A stretch of 64,000 bases of DNA, taken from the IMG/VR virus record IMGVR_UViG_3300012007_000001, positions 1 to 64,000 of that record; one strand, written 5' to 3'. Positions 42,871-47,925 of the stretch are shown piece by piece. The translations under genes and the position numbers were made by a program. The notes under the pieces were generated by a model. That model was not told where the DNA came from, did no database searches, and saw nothing but the letters and a program-made list of their open reading frames with translations. Source of the stretch: a virus (lineage: Duplodnaviria; Caudoviricetes). Position 1 is the stretch's first letter, and each line of letters starts with the position of its first letter.

Positions 42871-43647
42871 TTACTCCTCCTCCAGTTCTATGTCATCCGA
42901 CTGCAAGTTTTCAGGCATTTCCGTCTTTGTGGCGATACCGTGCTCGTAGTCGAAAATAAGTTTTTCGCAATAGGGGAACTCCTGCAAGCACCGCTGATAG
43001 TCACGCGGGTAGTTCTTTCTGAGAAACAGCAGATGGTCGAGGTCTATAGCCAACCCCTGCGACACATTGCCCTTCACGTATTCCAGCGGCCTAATCAGAG
43101 ACTTCGCCTTGATGTACTGCAACACCTCGCCGTTAGTCCACACGGCCAGCGGGTAAACCATGCCCTTCTTGGTCATGTATGTACCGTTCTGCTTCTTGAA
43201 CATCAGCAGGCGCATACGCTTCATGTAGCCGTCCACGCCCTTCATGCCGCTAAAGGCATAGGGTACGCCCGTTTCCTGCCTTACCTGTTCCTCTATCTGT
43301 CCGATGGTACGCATACGCAGGTGGTTCGGGTCTTTCTTCGGCAGCAGATAGCGGGGGTCGGGGTCACAGAAGAATCCTCCTGCCTTGAATGCGTCATGCT
43401 GAAAGTGCAGGATTTTCCGTACCTCCACATTCCTGTAATGCTTCTCAGCCCAATCAATGTAAGGCTGAACATGGTCGCAGTTGTTCACAAGGTACATGTA
43501 ATAGCAGATGACCTTCGGGAATGTCGTTGCCAGCATCTCCAGCAGGGCGATGCCGTCCTTGCCGCCAGCCGAATAGAACAGTACGGCGGTGTCTGTCTTT
43601 TCGCGGATGCCCTTGATGATGGCAATTGTCTCTGAATACTTGCTCAT
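42871..43647 (-). CDS. PP-loop / PAPS-reductase-family protein
   Basis: LFYSAGGKDG PP-loop; GMKGVDG..RMR; YPLAVWT..EV..YI. Confidence 0.8.
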   Translation of the reverse strand: MSKYSETIAIIKGIREKTDTAVLFYSAGGKDGIALLEMLATTFPKVICYYMYLVNNCDHVQPYIDWAEKHYRNVEVRKILHFQHDAFKAGGFFCDPDPRYLLPKKDPNHLRMRTIGQIEEQVRQETGVPYAFSGMKGVDGYMKRMRLLMFKKQNGTYMTKKGMVYPLAVWTNGEVLQYIKAKSLIRPLEYVKGNVSQGLAIDLDHLLFLRKNYPRDYQRCLQEFPYCEKLIFDYEHGIATKTEMPENLQSDDIELEEE

Positions 43648-43667: not shown

Positions 43668-44336
43668 TTAGTTTGAGCCGCCCAAAGCTGTACGCAAGGC
43701 AGCTGCTATGGTGTTCCCGCTTCCTCGGCGCAATACCCTTTCGCGGTCACTCATCATCCTATCCCAATCATCGTATGTCTTAACCCTGTCAAGGTTGATT
43801 TCCCTGCTTGGGTTATAGCTTCGCATCATTGCCGACAATCCTTTTGGCAGGGTCATGGCAACGACGGGAAGGCGTGTGCGCCCATCCCAATCAGACGGTG
43901 CTAAATCGTCATCCCATTCTACTTTTCCGATGGCTTTAGCACCATATTTCGCATACATATTCTGTAATCCACCACCATAGCAATCCAGCTTTCGGCCACC
44001 CCTTGCAGAAGCAAATGCCATGATGTTGGGCATCCTTCCGCGTGTCCTGCTGAAAACGGCCTCTACATTGCCGTCACTTGTTATGGCGAGTCCTGTCTTG
44101 TGGTCTTTAGAAAGGTAATAAGCCGTGCCACTGTTACGGTTATTCCTGAACTGTTTCTTTGTATGGGTATCAACCATCCAGCCGTGCCTGTTTTTCTTCT
44201 TGGCATAGTTGATGGCGTTTTTGAAAGCCCTTGGCGTTGCACGCTCAAATTCTACGTGAGAATGCCGAATACCCTTTCTTGTTAGGGCATTCTCGACACG
44301 CTTGTTTGCTTTTTCAATATCGCTTATGTACCTGAC
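43668..44336 (-). CDS. 222-aa basic protein with a GNAT-like domain; proposed GTC start (VRYISDIEK...)
   Basis: The frame is open for 53 codons upstream of the track ATG (44177) to GTC at 44336, directly after an in-frame TGA; G.AI..DG....VF..GGRKLDCY..L..Y...W....AP.DW pattern. Confidence 0.65.
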   Translation of the reverse strand, partial: VRYISDIEKANKRVENALTRKGIRHSHVEFERATPRAFKNAINYAKKKNRHGWMVDTHTKKQFRNNRNSGTAYYLSKDHKTGLAITSDGNVEAVFSRTRGRMPNIMAFASARGGRKLDCYGGGLQNMYAKYGAKAIGKVEWDDDLAPSDWDGRTRLPVVAMTLPKGLSAMMRSYNPSREINLDRVKTYDDWDRMMSDRERVLRRGSGNTIAAALRTALGGSN

Positions 44337-44349
44337 TCAGCCGTTCCGA

Positions 44350-44547
44350 TTACATTGTCAAAATATCAGCCATCAATTCAGGGCTGCTATAATCCATGTC
44401 ACTATCCAGCGAATCGTCGCTTGGGCTGTCTGCCAGTTTTCTTGCCTCATCCTCTGTCAGGTAAGGCTTGCCGTTCTCCTTGATTTTGCAGAGCTCCTCA
44501 AAAAGACGCTGGCGATACTCAGCTATCTGTTCTTTTGTATGCTTCAT
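44350..44547 (-). CDS. 65-aa acidic-tailed protein with its own operator-overlapped promoter
   Basis: ORF track; TATCTTTG at about 44567-44574 and operator-like site 44570-44592. Confidence 0.7.
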   Translation of the reverse strand: MKHTKEQIAEYRQRLFEELCKIKENGKPYLTEDEARKLADSPSDDSLDSDMDYSSPELMADILTM

Positions 44548-44714
44548 TGTTGTTCATTTAATAGTGCAAAGATAAAGCAAATAAATTGATTTACCAAATA
44601 TTTCTCGTTATTTTTTGTTGCATATCACTTTATTTAACTCTTCCGCTAAATCAGAATGGCCACCACCATCATTTTGCTGACGGCGATGGCCATGATGTCG
44701 GCTCAAGGCAACCT

Positions 44715-44969
44715 TTAGCCCTCAGAGCCTGCGGCAGCACGAAGGGCGGCAGAGCGCAAGGCTGCACCACGAACACCACGCGCACGCATAGCGGCTACGT
44801 TCTGACGTGCTTGTCGGGCGAATGCCACACGAAGGTCTTGACGACGCTGTTCACGGTTTCCCCAACCTGCACGGCCTTCCGCATAGCGGCCACCATTTGC
44901 CAGTCGGCGACTACCTGCACCGTTCACGTTTGACGTGACACCAGTGATTCGATTGATTCTGTTTCTGAC
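44715..44969 (-). CDS. 84-aa Arg/Ala/Gly-rich protein; proposed GTC start (VRNRINRITG...)
   Basis: The frame is open for 14 codons upstream of the track GTG (44927) to GTC at 44969, directly after an in-frame TGA. Confidence 0.65.
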   Translation of the reverse strand, partial: VRNRINRITGVTSNVNGAGSRRLANGGRYAEGRAGWGNREQRRQDLRVAFARQARQNVAAMRARGVRGAALRSAALRAAAGSEG

Positions 44970-45001
44970 TCAGCATTCAAATTAAAGGGTTCTACATTAT
45001 G

Positions 45002-45412
45002 TTAGTTGTCTGAATGGGCTTCCTGTTCCCCGTCGAAGATTTCACAGTTCTCCGTCTGCAATACTTCGCCGAGTTCATACTGCATCTGCGTAACATAGTA
45101 GGTCTCGCCGTTGTCAACGAATGTAAGCGGCTCACCAGTCTTTTCGTCATCCATCTGAACGACCTTAATCCCGATGACCTGTACCAGCAGGCGGGGGGCA
45201 TTCTTCTGACGGCCATTGATAAGCTGCAAGGCATCATAGCCCACAACCTCGACATCGCTTGTGCCGTCGCCGTTGTCCTTTTCCACCAAATACTGCTTGG
45301 CGTTACGCGGGTAAACAAATCGGTGCTCGACCTTCTGCTCACCCTTCAAGATTTTCTTGAAACTGTCGCGCTTGATTTGTAGCGTCAGTACATCTAATCC
45401 TTCTAAATTCAT
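45002..45412 (-). CDS. ASCH (PUA-like) domain protein
   Basis: LTLQIKRDSFKKILKGEQKVEHR, a variant of the GxKxxExR motif, then YDALQLING. Confidence 0.75.
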   Translation of the reverse strand: MNLEGLDVLTLQIKRDSFKKILKGEQKVEHRFVYPRNAKQYLVEKDNGDGTSDVEVVGYDALQLINGRQKNAPRLLVQVIGIKVVQMDDEKTGEPLTFVDNGETYYVTQMQYELGEVLQTENCEIFDGEQEAHSDN

Positions 45413-45445
45413 TTTAATTCCGATTTAATTGTTACTATAATATTG

Positions 45446-45518
45446 TTGCGGGAGCAGGGCTCGAACCTGCGACCTCCAGTAAGTCAGACTGTTAAGCTAC
45501 CAACTGCTCCATCCCGCG
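45446..45518 (-). tRNA. Atypical tRNA: initiator (fMet) body with a GAC (Val) anticodon; CCA not encoded
   Basis: CGCGGGA UG GAGC AGUUGGUA GCUU A ACAGU CU-GAC-UU ACUGG AGGUC GCAGG UUCGAGC CCUGC UCCCGCA A; C1xA72, A11-U24, U37/U38. Confidence 0.88.
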
Positions 45519-45526
45519 ATTTTCGG

Positions 45527-45599
45527 CAAAGTTACACATATTACTTTTGTCATGTGAATCTATGCCTACATTATATTTCACCAATTTATATTAGTGAAA
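45527..45599 (-). promoter_or_regulatory. Putative late promoter 4 (tRNA-packaging operon)
   Basis: TAACTTTG 45527-45534; TTTCAC-N12-GTGAAA 45576-45599; 41-bp gap. Confidence 0.75.
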
Positions 45600-45823: not shown

Positions 45824-46759
45824 TTACCATTCCGCAAAGATGTTATGACTGGCATCAACGACTTGCTCGGAGTACTGAACACGGCAATCCACCTTGTTTC
45901 TGATGCTGTCTTTCCAGTATATCTTAGACTTCGGGGCTTTCGCTGCCACAATCTCCTGCACGTCATTGACGAACTTCACTATGCCGTCAAGCGTGATGGG
46001 CTTCTTGTTGTGCTTCTTGCCGCTTTCCAGCCCTATCTTATAGACATCGCAGAATCCCAATGATTCTTTTATCATCTCCAGCGAATCATCCAAGTCTATC
46101 ACAGGCTCGATGCTGGCAAAGGTATGAACGCCGTATTCCGCGCTAATTCTCGCCATTGCATCCACACGCTGCATATTCGTTGACGCATTCGGCTCAAGGT
46201 CATCCCTGCCTGTCAGCGTGAAACCGACGCACAGGTTCTTACCGCCATTGACCAGCAGACGATGACCACCGATTCCGTACACCCACTCAGAGCGTTTCGT
46301 CAGCATGGTAACTGGCACTGGAGGCAAATCGTTTCTTCTGCTTCCGTCCTCGTTACATCCCAACGCGATATAGGCACACCGCATGAATGTATAGAAGGTG
46401 TCTAACGGCTGCTGTAGGCACGGGTCACTGCTGAACGTGAAGAAGATTCCACGGCCATCTACCATGATTCTATCCCTGTACCTGTTCAGTTCCTTCTCAA
46501 ACACTTGCACGGCCTTGTTACATCCGACAATGAATGCGAGTTTTCTTGAAGCGTCGCAGTCATTCTTGAATTTGACATCCTTTGCCGTCAGCTGAAACTC
46601 CTTTTTCAGTTGAGGGATTTTCTGACCCATTCCGTGACCTAACACACCTTTCTTGCAGTAGCAATACTCACAGTCATTTGAACACCCGACAAAGATATTT
46701 GCCGCCCAAGGAGCGTATTCACGGGCTTTGCCCGATGGCTGATAAATAATCTTTCCCAT
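45824..46759 (-). CDS. Radical SAM protein (start revised to MGKIIYQP)
   Basis: GCSNDCEYCYC (CxxxCxxC), SSDP, LTK, TLTG..LEPNA, SIEPVI. Confidence 0.85.
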   Translation of the reverse strand: MGKIIYQPSGKAREYAPWAANIFVGCSNDCEYCYCKKGVLGHGMGQKIPQLKKEFQLTAKDVKFKNDCDASRKLAFIVGCNKAVQVFEKELNRYRDRIMVDGRGIFFTFSSDPCLQQPLDTFYTFMRCAYIALGCNEDGSRRNDLPPVPVTMLTKRSEWVYGIGGHRLLVNGGKNLCVGFTLTGRDDLEPNASTNMQRVDAMARISAEYGVHTFASIEPVIDLDDSLEMIKESLGFCDVYKIGLESGKKHNKKPITLDGIVKFVNDVQEIVAAKAPKSKIYWKDSIRNKVDCRVQYSEQVVDASHNIFAEW

Positions 46760-47925
46760 ATTACTGAAACTTAGAAAAATCCTTCTTGAAAACGACAAAC
46801 TTACCGTCAGTCCGTGCCTTGCACTTGCCAATCTGCGCACGCACAGAATCTACTTCGCAATGCTTCTGCTTCCTGACCACCTTTCCGTGAAAGAAACATC
46901 CACGGCAGAACGAGTCAGCCTCCTGAACTTTCATACGAACACCGTCACAGGTGAACACATCATTAATCGGCCTTTCCATATCACTTACCTTTTTCATCAT
47001 AGGGCTTGCCGCAAAACGGGCAGAATTTCACCTTGTCATCCAAACCGATATAGCGGTTATGCTTTGAATAGTTCCCGCTCTTGGTCTTTGGCCTGAACCA
47101 TCCAGTTACATATATCCGACCGTCAGGCGATACATGTTCCACACCGCCGACACCGTACTGCTTGCACAGTTCAGCCTTAATCTTAGCTACACAATCACAC
47201 ATATTCTATTGTTTCTTAAATGGATTCTGAAACACTAACTTTGTCTTTTTTATAAAATCCCTTCCAGCAGTTCCTTTCGGTGCTGTCTCTTCATACCAAA
47301 CGACTCTCCGCAATAGGAGAGACTTTGAATTGATATGCAACCAGCACCGATGCTCCTTTGACGGGCTACAACATTCAAAGTCACAACAGCATTCATCACG
47401 CCAAGGGTTATGTATGGCGATTCCAAACACTTGCAAGAAAGACTGAATACGCGCAGAAAAAGCAATGTTTTTCCGAAACGCTGTCTTCCAATAATATTTT
47501 CTGTAATACCAAATCTTTTTCATACAATCTATTTCTTATGTCTGTTGGCATAGATTTTCATGGCCGTCTTTTTGTTCCGCGCCATGATTTTCTCGCCGTG
47601 GATTACAAACTCATGCTCTTGCATGTTCACACCATACATCTGATGATTCCGCGCCTTTTCCTCTTCGGTTAGTTCACGGCCTCCAGTTGCTCTATGCCTT
47701 CTGCGTGTGCCAGTATCAAATATTGACGTATCACCAGCACCAGCCACAGCCGCCATCATCAGCGTAGCGGCCATCAGTTTGCTAATCTTTCTCATTTCGG
47801 TTCCTCCTCTGCCTTTTCAGGTCGCCATTCATTGAAGAATCCGCATTCACGGGTGGCGTTTTCATGGTTGCCAAATCCCATCTTGTGCAAATCCAGTTCC
47901 TTGAACTCGACCATCTTTCTTACAT

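What the first reader, a model, noticed from the sequence alone, without database searches (positions are those of the whole stretch)
43668..45599. Phage-private translation initiation system: an initiator-type tRNA with a GAC anticodon and two cognate GUC-start genes
Seen in the sequence: the tRNA at 45446-45518 has an fMet body but the anticodon arm ACAGU-CUGACUU-ACUGG. Within 1.2 kb downstream, two ORFs (44715-44969 and 43668-44336) each open immediately after an in-frame TGA with the same GCUGA|GUC-AGR (Val-Arg). Their first ATG/GTG/TTG comes only 14 and 53 codons later. The tRNA segment 5'-U31 CUGACUU A39-3' is complementary to mRNA 5'-UGAGUCAGR-3' over 9 nt (allowing G-U). That would explain the abnormal U37/U38. 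I found the motif only at these two starts by eye. Established knowledge: C1xA72, G2-C71, C3-G70 and A11-U24 are formyltransferase/initiator determinants; A35, C36 and A73 are ValRS determinants. Inference: the phage supplies a dedicated initiator, possibly formyl-Val, so these genes are translated only when the tRNA is present. Extended pairing might replace the missing three G-C pairs. I know of no description of this arrangement but could not search.
Basis: partly seen in the sequence, partly recalled or inferred. Interest (0 to 1): 0.96.

Follow-up and report, generated by a model that had tools for sequence, protein, structure and literature searches.

The report
Phage initiator tRNA for GUC starts
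This 119-kb gut phage carries a start-of-translation (initiator-type) tRNA whose anticodon reads the valine codon GUC instead of AUG, and two nearby genes open on GUC; related phages show the same pairing of tRNA and start codon, so the phage seems to bring its own private start codon, which has no published natural precedent that I could find.

Summary
The tRNA at 45446-45518(-) has the host initiator's acceptor, D and T arms (1:72 unpaired, G2-C71, C3-G70, A11-U24) but the loop CUGACUU (anticodon GAC, U37 U38).

Two ORFs (44715-44969 and 43668-44336, both on the - strand) open at GCTGA|GTC. Their first ATG/GTG/TTG lies 14 and 53 codons in. Homologues and a fold model show that the upstream codons are real protein.

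The main support comes from relatives:
- More than 100 viral contigs and Bacteroidales prophages carry the same tRNA type, with compensatory stem changes.
- GCTGAGTC lies only on the tRNA strand (66 against 0). It stands at the in-frame 5' end of several unrelated ORF families.
- In one prophage the PAPS-reductase orthologue has GTC exactly where this phage has ATG.
- Phages with anticodon AAC use GTT starts and no convincing GTC start. Phages with GAC use both. This is what wobble rules predict.

The in-frame TGA, the palindrome and the 9-nt pairing are not conserved. Only G(-2)A(-1)GUY is, which fits U37/U38.

Charging with valine, formylation and initiation itself are inferred, not shown. 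Earlier notes of this scan report the same system on other genomes. I found no publication of it.

The parts
45527..45534 (-). Bacteroidota-type -7 promoter box TAACTTTG, 8 nt upstream of the tRNA 5' end
   Evidence: Pattern TANNTTTG and sequence. A like box (TACCTTTG) precedes the tRNA in L006. The consensus is from my own knowledge of Bacteroides promoters. Function is not tested.
45446..45518 (-). Initiator-type tRNA with anticodon GAC. Its acceptor, D and T arms are those of Bacteroidales tRNAfMet. Its anticodon arm is ACAGU-CUGACUU-ACUGG.
   Evidence: Host tRNAfMet for comparison. Alignment and pair counts: (1:72 unpaired 15/15, A11-U24 15/15, all anticodon-stem and T-stem pairs covary).
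45481..45487 (-). Anticodon loop C32 U33 G34 A35 C36 U37 U38 (anticodon at 45483-45485)
   Evidence: U37 U38 is invariant in all 13 variants aligned. No initiator-like GAC/AAC tRNA with another base at position 37 or 38 was found. Elongator tRNA-Val(GAC) genes have a purine at 37.
45002..45412 (-). ASCH-like gene (136 aa, ATG start) between the tRNA and GUC-start ORF1. It is a syntenic neighbour and probably not part of the mechanism.
   Evidence: Pfam ASCH matches 8 of 15 family members. The fold search puts ASCH structures at the top, weakly. It is also present in relatives without the tRNA.
44967..44974 (-). Start motif 1, GCTGA|GTC (GTC = 44967-44969)
   Evidence: The same motif heads the orthologous ORF in all tRNA-bearing relatives.
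44715..44969 (-). GUC-start ORF1: 84-codon Arg/Gly-rich protein (VRNRINRITGVTSNVNGAGSRRL...)
   Evidence: tblastn homologues in 73 loci align from residue 1. The R-x-R-I-N-R..GPRRN peptide upstream of the internal GTG/ATG is conserved, with synonymous changes. The L084/L167 homologue has no canonical start until codon 46 of 55.
44656..44693 (-). Terminator-like hairpin (16 pairs) followed by TCTGATTT. It ends the unit tRNA - ASCH - ORF1.
   Evidence: It is conserved in L002 and L004.
44567..44574 (-). Second -7 box, TATCTTTG, ahead of the 65-aa gene
   Evidence: It is conserved in L002, L004 and L005.
44350..44547 (-). 65-aa ORF (ATG start) whose stop lies 13 nt before GUC start 2
   Evidence: In relatives that start the next gene with ATG, this gene overlaps that ATG by one base.
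44334..44341 (-). Start motif 2, GCTGA|GTC (GTC = 44334-44336)
   Evidence: It is kept in L001 and L002. L004 has GCCGA|GTC and L005 has GTGA|GTT.
43668..44336 (-). GUC-start ORF2: 222-codon protein with a GNAT-like fold
   Evidence: Homologues starting 'MA..' align to within one residue of V1. Codons 5-14 show synonymous changes against L002. AlphaFold model: pLDDT 85, with helix 2-20, strand 29-32 and helix 34-47 all upstream of M54. All top fold matches are GNAT acetyltransferases, weakly.
42871..43647 (-). PAPS-reductase-like gene. It starts with ATG here, but its orthologue in a Dysgonomonas prophage starts with GCTGA|GTC at the same residue. It serves as the comparison gene.

Best explanation
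The phage encodes a derivative of the host's initiator tRNA. The acceptor, D and T arms are kept, so the features used by formyltransferase and for P-site entry remain. The anticodon arm is replaced, giving anticodon GAC and U37 U38.

Host ValRS most likely charges the tRNA with valine, because A35, C36 and A73 are present. Host formyltransferase most likely formylates it. It then most likely starts translation at GUC (and GUU by G-U wobble) where the codon is preceded by G(-2)A(-1).

In this genome two genes use it. ORF1 (84 aa, Arg-rich) lies in the same transcription unit as the tRNA. ORF2 (222 aa, GNAT-like) lies in the next unit. These proteins can therefore be made only when the phage tRNA is present. 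This gives the phage a private gate on translation that host ribosomes cannot open alone.

Shown here: the tRNA anatomy and its conservation, the motif, the real coding of the N-terminal extensions, and the coupling between anticodon and start codon across phages. Inferred: valine charging, formylation, P-site initiation, pairing of A(-1)/G(-2) with U37/U38, and the regulatory purpose.
For: 1. The tRNA body matches Bacteroidales tRNAfMet. The first 24 nt are identical to the Dysgonomonas gene. In 15 of 15 aligned sequences 1:72 is unpaired (CxA, AxA, UxU, CxC), and G2-C71, C3-G70 and A11-U24 are invariant. All 10 anticodon-stem and T-stem pairs covary.

2. At least 108 IMG/VR loci carry this tRNA type, as do prophages in Bacteroides mediterraneensis, Bacteroides sp. 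OM05-12, a B. ovatus MAG, Dysgonomonas macrotermitis and Lepagella muris.

3. In 1.05 Mb of these loci GCTGAGTC occurs 66 times on the tRNA strand and never on the other. In every distinct context GTC is in frame with the only long ORF. With a wider motif the figure is 43 of 52, against a null of 1/3, p = 3e-13.

4. Orthologues show V(GTC) in place of M(ATG). The window's PAPS reductase MSKYSETIAII.. aligns from residue 1 with L167 VSKIQIANRII... There the first canonical start, at codon 34, would delete the FYSCGKDS loop. The 'MA..' starts of the ORF2 family fall within one residue of V1.

5. ORF2's N-terminus is real protein. Synonymous changes begin at codon 5. The ATA at codon 4 is not conserved (AGA in L002). 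L004 and L005 have no near-cognate start nearby. The modelled helix 2-20 and GNAT strand 1 and helix 1 lie before M54.

6. Start codon and anticodon are coupled. In 51 non-identical loci the tRNA-proximal ORF starts with GAGTC when the anticodon is GAC (45/45) and with GAGTT when it is AAC (6/6). The neighbour-gene tree needs 3-4 switches. Across all special starts, GAC phages have 35 GTC and 18 GTT, while AAC phages have 2 doubtful GTC and 18 GTT, p = 1.6e-5. This is the asymmetry expected from G34 against A34 wobble.

7. Relatives whose ORF2 homologue starts with ATG have no such tRNA within 10 kb.

8. GA at -2/-1 precedes every special start, but only 6 of 145 ATG ORFs of this genome. In those ATG ORFs -1 is T in 76 of 145, which complements A37 of the host initiator. 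Pairing between tRNA position 37 and mRNA position -1 has been shown in E. coli, including for an A37U mutant (PMC10018350).

9. There is an engineered precedent. E. coli tRNAfMet G34C36 (anticodon GAC) is charged by ValRS, formylated, and initiates at GUC (PMC2268962).
Against: There is no direct evidence of translation. The RNA libraries available are assembled contigs without ends, and there is no proteomic or Ribo-seq data.

The three consecutive G-C pairs of the anticodon stem, a hallmark of initiators, are absent. This window has A29-U41, G30-C40 and U31-A39, and five other variants have C30-G40. A middle G30-C40 pair alone can suffice in E. coli (PMC5389676).

ORF1 keeps a conserved in-frame GTG/ATG at codon 15, so a shorter product from a canonical start is possible as well.

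U37/U38 and G(-2)A(-1) never vary, so their pairing cannot be tested by covariation.

The loci are related, and many are near-copies. Counts were de-duplicated by sequence, not by phylogeny.
Confidence: 0.78

Rival explanations
1. The GUC/GUU starts are weak non-canonical starts read by the host's ordinary tRNAfMet, as at the GTC start of Streptomyces sigR. The phage tRNA would be an unrelated elongator or a decoy.
For: A natural GTC start without a dedicated tRNA exists, repressed by IF3 (PMC5472188). The phage tRNA lacks the 3 G-C pairs.
Against: The start's third base follows anticodon position 34. AAC phages have GTT starts and no convincing GTC start. The tRNA and the motif co-occur, while tRNA-less relatives use ATG. 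An unpaired 1:72 and A11-U24 are not elongator features. True elongator tRNA-Val(GAC) genes in the same collection look different, with paired 1:72 and a purine at 37.
Confidence: 0.07
2. The tRNA does read the GUY starts, but not as a classical formylated 30S initiator. For example, ribosomes that have just terminated on the upstream ORF (2-50 nt away) might re-initiate, or 70S ribosomes might scan, with or without formylation.
For: Every special start lies a short way downstream of another ORF's stop: 32 nt and 13 nt here, and 2-30 nt in relatives. The 3 G-C pairs needed for the IF3 checkpoint are missing. The engineered GAC initiator works in re-initiation in E. coli (PMC2268962).
Against: The formylation determinants are strictly conserved, which would be unnecessary without formylation. 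ORF1 follows an A/T-rich spacer typical of independent Bacteroidota start sites.
Confidence: 0.1
3. The ORFs really start at the downstream canonical codons (GTG 44927, ATG 44177). The upstream open frames would then be untranslated leaders, and GCTGAGTC would be a DNA or RNA signal such as a protein-binding palindrome, a processing site or a methylation site.
For: CTGAGTCAG is a palindrome in this window. ORF1 has a conserved internal GTG/ATG.
Against: The palindrome is not conserved: GCTGAGTCGG, GCTGAGTCGC and GCAGAGTCGC also occur. The motif is always in frame. The upstream codons evolve as protein and align with the N-termini of ATG-start homologues. M54 would remove GNAT strand 1 and helix 1. 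In L167, codon 34 would remove the PP-loop. The AAC lineages have GAGTT, which is not a GANTC site.
Confidence: 0.03

Closest known systems
Engineered E. coli initiator tRNAfMet G34C36 (anticodon GAC), RajBhandary/Schulman laboratories
   Same: It has an initiator body with anticodon GAC. It is charged by ValRS, formylated, and initiates at GUC. It also works in re-initiation, in mammalian cells and on an archaeal leaderless mRNA (PMC2268962).
   Different: It was made in the laboratory. It keeps the three G-C pairs and A37 A38. The phage tRNA is natural, has a wholly different anticodon stem, has U37 U38, and comes with a conserved mRNA context, G(-2)A(-1).
Bacteroidales initiator tRNAfMet (host)
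   Same: The acceptor stem, D arm, variable loop and T loop are nearly identical. CxA at 1:72, G2-C71, C3-G70 and A11-U24 are all present.
   Different: The host arm UUGGG-CUCAUAA-CCCAA (CAU, three G-C pairs, A37 A38) is replaced by ACAGU-CUGACUU-ACUGG (GAC, one G-C pair at 30-40, U37 U38).
GTC start codon of Streptomyces sigR
   Same: It is a natural gene that starts at GTC, used as a translational control point (PMC5472188).
   Different: It has no dedicated tRNA. The ordinary initiator reads it poorly and IF3 represses it. Here a cognate tRNA is supplied and co-varies with the codon.
Phage-encoded suppressor tRNAs that recode stop codons in late genes of gut phages (from my own knowledge: Borges et al. 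2022; Peters et al. 2022)
   Same: A phage tRNA changes how a codon is read, so that certain phage genes are translatable only during infection.
   Different: Those act in elongation on TAG/TGA. This one acts at initiation on a sense codon.
Quadruplet pairing of initiator tRNA A37 with U(-1)
   Same: Base 37 of the initiator pairs with the base before the start codon. An A37U mutant favours A(-1) (PMC10018350). Here U37 goes with an invariant A(-1).
   Different: Here the context is obligatory (100%) and extends to G(-2) opposite U38. In E. coli the effect is modest.

Membership tests
Bacterial initiator tRNA (tRNAfMet type) | No Watson-Crick pair at 1:72 | tested here: met
   C1xA72 in the window. 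Unpaired in 15 of 15 aligned sequences (CxA, AxA, UxU, CxC).
Bacterial initiator tRNA (tRNAfMet type) | G2-C71, C3-G70 and A11-U24 (formyltransferase and initiator determinants, from my own knowledge of E. coli work) | tested here: met
   All three are invariant, 15 of 15.
Bacterial initiator tRNA (tRNAfMet type) | Three consecutive G-C pairs at 29-41, 30-40 and 31-39 | tested here: not met
   The window has A29-U41, G30-C40 and U31-A39. Across the family, 30-40 is G-C in 10 of 15 rows (two of them the host tRNAfMet genes) and C-G in 5. The middle pair alone can suffice in E. coli (PMC5389676).
Bacterial initiator tRNA (tRNAfMet type) | Anticodon CAU, charged with methionine | tested here: not met
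   The anticodon is GAC. Relatives have GAC or AAC.
Bacterial initiator tRNA (tRNAfMet type) | Formylated, and used in the ribosomal P site to start proteins | not testable with these tools
   This is inferred from genes that lack canonical starts and from the coupling of codon and anticodon.
Elongator tRNA-Val(GAC) | Paired 1:72, pyrimidine11-purine24, purine at 37 | tested here: not met
   The window tRNA has CxA, A11-U24 and U37. The 22 elongator tRNA-Val(GAC) genes from IMG/VR show G1-C72-type stems and A/G37.
Elongator tRNA-Val(GAC) | ValRS identity set A35, C36, A73 (from my own knowledge of E. coli) | tested here: met
   A35 and A73 are invariant columns. C36 is present in all phage variants. 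Variation is confined to position 34 (G or A).
GNAT acetyltransferase fold (product of ORF2) | beta1-alpha1-alpha2-beta2-4-alpha3-beta5-alpha4-beta6 core that matches solved GNATs | tested here: inconclusive
   The model has pLDDT 85. All top 30 Foldseek hits are GNATs, but with E about 1e-3 and TM 0.4-0.5. There is no Pfam hit.

The most novel reading that the evidence does not exclude
These phages use a five-base start signal rather than a start triplet. GA-GUY would pair with tRNA positions 34-38 (G/A-A-C-U-U). The two extra pairs to U37 and U38 would take over the P-site stabilising role of the lost three G-C pairs. Together with formyl-valine, this would make a fully orthogonal natural initiation channel that host mRNAs and the host initiator cannot enter. 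The phage would use it to lock small basic, probably toxic or packaging-related, proteins until the tRNA is made.
Probability: 0.4. Interest if true: 0.95.

Novelty: categorically new. Interest (0 to 1): 0.93.

Why it matters
All known cellular and viral translation starts with a methionine initiator tRNA reading AUG or near-cognates. Initiator tRNAs with other anticodons are known only as laboratory constructs.

A natural virus-encoded initiator for a valine codon would be the first private start codon. It would be a start-site counterpart of stop-codon recoding by phage suppressor tRNAs.

It would matter in three further ways:
- Gene callers truncate or miss such genes. Here ORF2 is called 169 aa instead of 222, and ORF1 70 aa instead of 84.
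- Evolution would have supplied a ready-made orthogonal initiation pair for Bacteroides synthetic biology.
- It would allow a direct test of how much of initiator function lies in the acceptor end and how much in the anticodon stem, and whether bases 37/38 can extend the start codon.

Cultured lysogens exist, so the idea can be tested now.

Tried and rejected
1. Nine-nt pairing of tRNA 31-39 with UGAGUCAGR. Rejected as a conserved feature. Position -3 is T, A or C, and +4/+5 vary (AG, GG, GC, GT, CA, AC, AA). Position 39 is A, G or C, with no compensation.

2. The in-frame TGA as part of the signal. Rejected, because GCAGAGTC is the commonest form in the largest lineage.

3. A palindromic DNA site or a GANTC methylation site. 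Rejected.

4. ATA or ATT near-cognate starts in ORF2. These are not conserved.

5. Frameshift or read-through from the 65-aa ORF. The frames differ between phages, and two TGA codons intervene here.

6. A leaderless mRNA beginning at the motif. Site 2 has no promoter box nearby, so this cannot be general.

7. ASCH as an obligate partner of the tRNA. Rejected, because ASCH is also present in tRNA-less relatives.

8. Phage-encoded deformylase, formyltransferase or IF3. None was found in the complete genome.

9. RNA evidence. Runs from bovine and sheep gut RNA libraries hold the stretch at 95-99% identity, but only as assembled contigs. They give no information on ends, strand or expression.

10. 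Predicting an AAC tRNA for the GTT-start L005 lineage. The contig is too short, and no relatives were found in the viral or metagenome contigs.

11. Other anticodons on the same body. One GAU case (L131) had no matching CTGAATC motif in 13 kb. The UAC and CAC searches gave no initiator-like tRNA.

12. Literature. Five searches found engineered GAC initiators and the sigR GTC start, but no natural initiator tRNA with a non-CAU anticodon.
Full report
**Observation**

The window is the first 64 kb of a complete 119,237-bp virus record with direct terminal repeats. ARAGORN finds one tRNA in the window, 45445-45518(-), Val, anticodon GAC. Rfam's tRNA model scores it at 49.8 bits.

Read directly, the tRNA has these parts:
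- acceptor stem CGCGGGA/UCCCGCA, with C1xA72, G2-C71 and C3-G70;
- D arm GAGC..GCUU, with A11-U24;
- anticodon arm ACAGU-CUGACUU-ACUGG;
- variable loop AGGUC;
- T arm GCAGG-UUCGAGC-CCUGC;
- discriminator A73.

The whole genome has only two more tRNAs (Gln-UUG and Glu-UUC, near 78 kb) and no CAU initiator.

Two minus-strand ORFs downstream open right after an in-frame TGA with GCTGA|GTC-AGR. ORF1 is 44715-44969, 84 codons. ORF2 is 43668-44336, 222 codons. Their first ATG/GTG/TTG lies at codon 15 (GTG 44927) and codon 54 (ATG 44177).

Exact CTGAGTCAG occurs only at these two places in the window. Genome-wide, GCTGAGTC occurs three times on the minus strand and never on the plus strand. The third copy lies out of frame inside a gene.

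**Anatomy of the locus**

- A Bacteroidota-type -7 box (TAACTTTG, 45527-45534) lies 8 nt before the tRNA.
- The tRNA is followed by an ASCH-like gene (45002-45412).
- ORF1 comes 32 nt later.
- A 16-bp terminator-like hairpin follows (44656-44693).
- A second -7 box (TATCTTTG, 44567-44574) opens the next unit. That unit holds a 65-aa ORF, ORF2 13 nt after its stop, and then PAPS-reductase-like, ParB-like, small terminase and large terminase genes.

**The N-terminal extensions are real protein**

ORF2 has homologues at 38-85% identity.

- Eight or more of them begin 'MA' followed by a basic stretch. This aligns with the window's V-RYISDIEKANKRVENALTRKGI to within one residue.
- In L002 (85% identical) the region reads GTC AGA AGG TAC AGA AGC GAC ATA GAA AAG GCC. 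It has six synonymous differences from the window between codons 5 and 14. The window's ATA at codon 4 is AGA there.
- L004 (52% identical) reads GCCGA|GTC AGT TTA CAG AAA GCA. It has no near-cognate start for 13 codons.
- L005 (47% identical) reads TAG TGA|GTT GGG AAA.
- An AlphaFold model (pLDDT 85) places a confident helix at residues 2-20. It also places the first strand and first helix of a GNAT-like fold at residues 29-47. All of these lie upstream of M54.

ORF1's homologues in 73 loci align from residue 1 by tblastn. They keep R-x-R-I-N-R...G-P-R-R-N upstream of the internal GTG/ATG, with third-position changes. In the Dysgonomonas prophage the homologous 55-codon ORF has no canonical start before codon 46.

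**The tRNA type is widespread and under selection as a tRNA**

A pattern for the D-stem, loop and variable region with loop YTGACTT found at least 108 viral loci. Almost all of them are initiator-like tRNAs.

The same tRNA type sits in prophages of Bacteroides mediterraneensis, Bacteroides sp. OM05-12, a B. ovatus MAG, Dysgonomonas macrotermitis and Lepagella muris.

I aligned 13 distinct variants with two host tRNAfMet genes. The pair counts show:
- 93.7% of cells are paired, against 75.6% when shuffled;
- all ten anticodon-stem and T-stem pairs have compensatory changes;
- 1:72 is unpaired in 15 of 15;
- G2-C71, C3-G70 and A11-U24 are invariant;
- the loop is YU-[G/A]AC-UU in every phage variant.

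The first 24 nt of the window tRNA are identical to the Dysgonomonas tRNAfMet. The tRNA is therefore a host-type initiator with a replaced anticodon arm.

Elongator tRNA-Val(GAC) genes from the same collection look different. They have a paired 1:72 and a purine at 37 (22 cases). No initiator-like GAC/AAC tRNA with another base at position 37 or 38 turned up.

**The motif marks start sites**

In 1.05 Mb of tRNA-bearing loci, GCTGAGTC occurs 66 times on the tRNA strand and never on the other. In every distinct context GTC is in frame with the only long ORF (52-228 codons), and the other two frames close within 27 codons. With the looser motif G[CT]NGAGTC, 43 of 52 distinct contexts are in frame, against a null of 1/3 (p = 3e-13).

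The ORFs belong to several unrelated families: the Arg-rich family, ORF2's family, three or four families of 55-120-aa basic proteins, and PAPS reductase.

The clearest case is PAPS reductase. The window's protein MSKYSETIAIIKGIREKTDTAVLFYSAGGKDG aligns from residue 1 with L167 VSKIQIANRIIETVSQKADRVILFYSCGKDS (E = 2e-55). There the V is GTC after GCTGA. The Pfam domain starts at residue 21. The next canonical start, at codon 34, would delete the nucleotide-binding loop.

**Codon and anticodon are coupled**

Earlier notes of this scan said that sister phages have anticodon AAC and GUU starts. I tested this claim.

A search for loop YTAACTT found the same initiator-like body with anticodon AAC in several lineages.

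Among 51 non-identical loci, the ORF next to the tRNA opens with GAGTC in 45 of 45 GAC loci. It opens with GAGTT in 6 of 6 AAC loci. On a tree of the adjacent ASCH gene the anticodon label changes four times, and well-supported branches force at least three changes.

A wider count changed my first impression of a one-to-one rule.
- GAC phages also have bona fide GTT starts, such as GCCGA|GTT AGA AGA in the 'VRRK..' families. They show 35 distinct GTC and 18 GTT N-termini.
- AAC phages have 18 GTT and only 2 doubtful GTC. This is after removing five artefacts that lie inside the tRNA gene itself.
- Fisher's exact test gives p = 1.6e-5.

This is the asymmetry expected if the tRNA reads the start codon directly. 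G34 pairs with C or U, and A34 pairs only with U.

Variation in the anticodon is confined to position 34. That keeps the ValRS identity bases A35 and C36.

Relatives whose ORF2 homologue starts with ATG carry no such tRNA within 10 kb.

**What is and is not part of the signal**

Across lineages the bases before the start are G(-5), C/T(-4), T/A/C(-3), G(-2) and A(-1).
- The TGA is not conserved. GCAGAGTC is the commonest form in the largest lineage.
- The palindrome is not conserved either.
- The pairing to positions 31-33 or 39 is not conserved. +4 is A, G or C, and position 39 is A, G or C.
- G(-2)A(-1) is constant.

In this genome's 145 ATG ORFs, GA occupies -2/-1 only 6 times. In the same ORFs -1 is T in 76 cases, which complements A37 of the host initiator. 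Pairing of initiator base 37 with mRNA base -1 has been shown in E. coli, and an A37U mutant favoured A(-1) (PMC10018350).

U37 with A(-1), and perhaps U38 with G(-2), is therefore a reasonable extended codon. It cannot be tested by covariation, because neither side varies.

**Mechanism proposed**

*Shown here:* a host-derived initiator body with a Val anticodon, a strand-specific in-frame start motif, genes that cannot be made from canonical starts, and coupling of start codon to anticodon by wobble rules.

*From established knowledge:* an E. coli tRNAfMet with anticodon GAC is charged by ValRS, formylated, and initiates at GUC (PMC2268962).

*Inferred:* the same happens here with host enzymes. 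The phage genome has no deformylase, formyltransferase or IF3 of its own.

The lost three G-C pairs are the main difficulty. The window keeps G30-C40, which can suffice in E. coli (PMC5389676), but some lineages have C30-G40. The extra pairs to U37/U38, or re-initiation after the closely preceding ORF, may compensate.

The purpose is unknown. The most likely one is a translational gate. ORF1 shares a transcription unit with the tRNA, and the products are mostly small, very basic proteins encoded beside the packaging genes.

**Comparison and novelty**

The nearest things known are:
- the engineered GAC initiator;
- the host tRNAfMet;
- the IF3-repressed GTC start of Streptomyces sigR, which has no dedicated tRNA (PMC5472188);
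- by analogy, phage suppressor tRNAs that recode stop codons (from my own knowledge).

Five literature searches found no natural initiator tRNA with a non-CAU anticodon. Earlier notes of this scan describe the same system on other genomes. Those are notes by agents like me, not independent evidence.

**Verdict**

The details on the TGA, the 9-nt pairing and the palindrome are not supported. I put 0.78 on a dedicated initiator for GUY starts.

Noticed in passing
L131:4250-4340 (IMG/VR contig 3300034103_000711): An initiator-like tRNA (U1xU72, G2-C71, C3-G70) with loop CUGAUUU, so anticodon GAU (Ile) with U37 U38. No CTGAATC-type start motif was found in the 13 kb held. It may be a second reassigned initiator (AUC/AUU starts) or a dead end.
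   Followed up: partly
L115, L117 and L249 (about 2260 nt downstream of the tRNA): A lineage has an AAC initiator-like tRNA with an E. coli-like D loop and T loop. Its GTT start is preceded by a Shine-Dalgarno sequence (AAAGGAGG-CTGA-GTT). The system therefore seems to exist outside SD-less Bacteroidota hosts.
   Followed up: no
whole genome G000 (window 1-64000 and beyond): Among 145 ATG-start ORFs, the base before ATG is T in 76 (52%) and position -3 is A in 79. The T at -1 complements A37 of the host initiator tRNA.
   Followed up: partly
window 45002-45412 (-): An ASCH-like gene follows the tRNA in almost all of the loci examined that carry this tRNA (tblastn hits in 105 loci). It is also present in related phages without the tRNA (L126/L127), so the linkage may be plain synteny.
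   Followed up: yes
window 43668-44336 (-): The product of GUC-start ORF2 models as a GNAT-like acetyltransferase fold with an extra N-terminal helix. It has no Pfam family and matches only PHROG 2563 (unknown function).
   Followed up: partly
window 44350-44547 (-) and its homologues in L002, L004 and L005: The small ORF before ORF2 ends in ...T-M-stop (ATG directly followed by TAA or TAG) in every relative. In relatives with an ATG start it overlaps the next gene's ATG by one base.
   Followed up: no
L008, L026, L030, L052, L069, L076, L078, L090, L099, L108, L109, L112 (GAC lineage): These loci hold arrays of paralogous small basic genes (53-118 codons) that open V-R-R/K-K/R... at GCCGA|GTT or GCTGA|GTC. 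Some have no ATG/GTG/TTG anywhere in frame (for example the 53-codon ORF in L109).
   Followed up: partly
window 45824-46840 (-): The 338-aa ORF upstream of the tRNA has a weak radical-SAM match, below the Pfam cut-off. It is conserved in L001 and L002.
   Followed up: no
genome G000 position 78157-78520 (outside the window): Two further phage tRNAs, Gln(UUG) and Glu(UUC), lie 220 nt apart.
   Followed up: no
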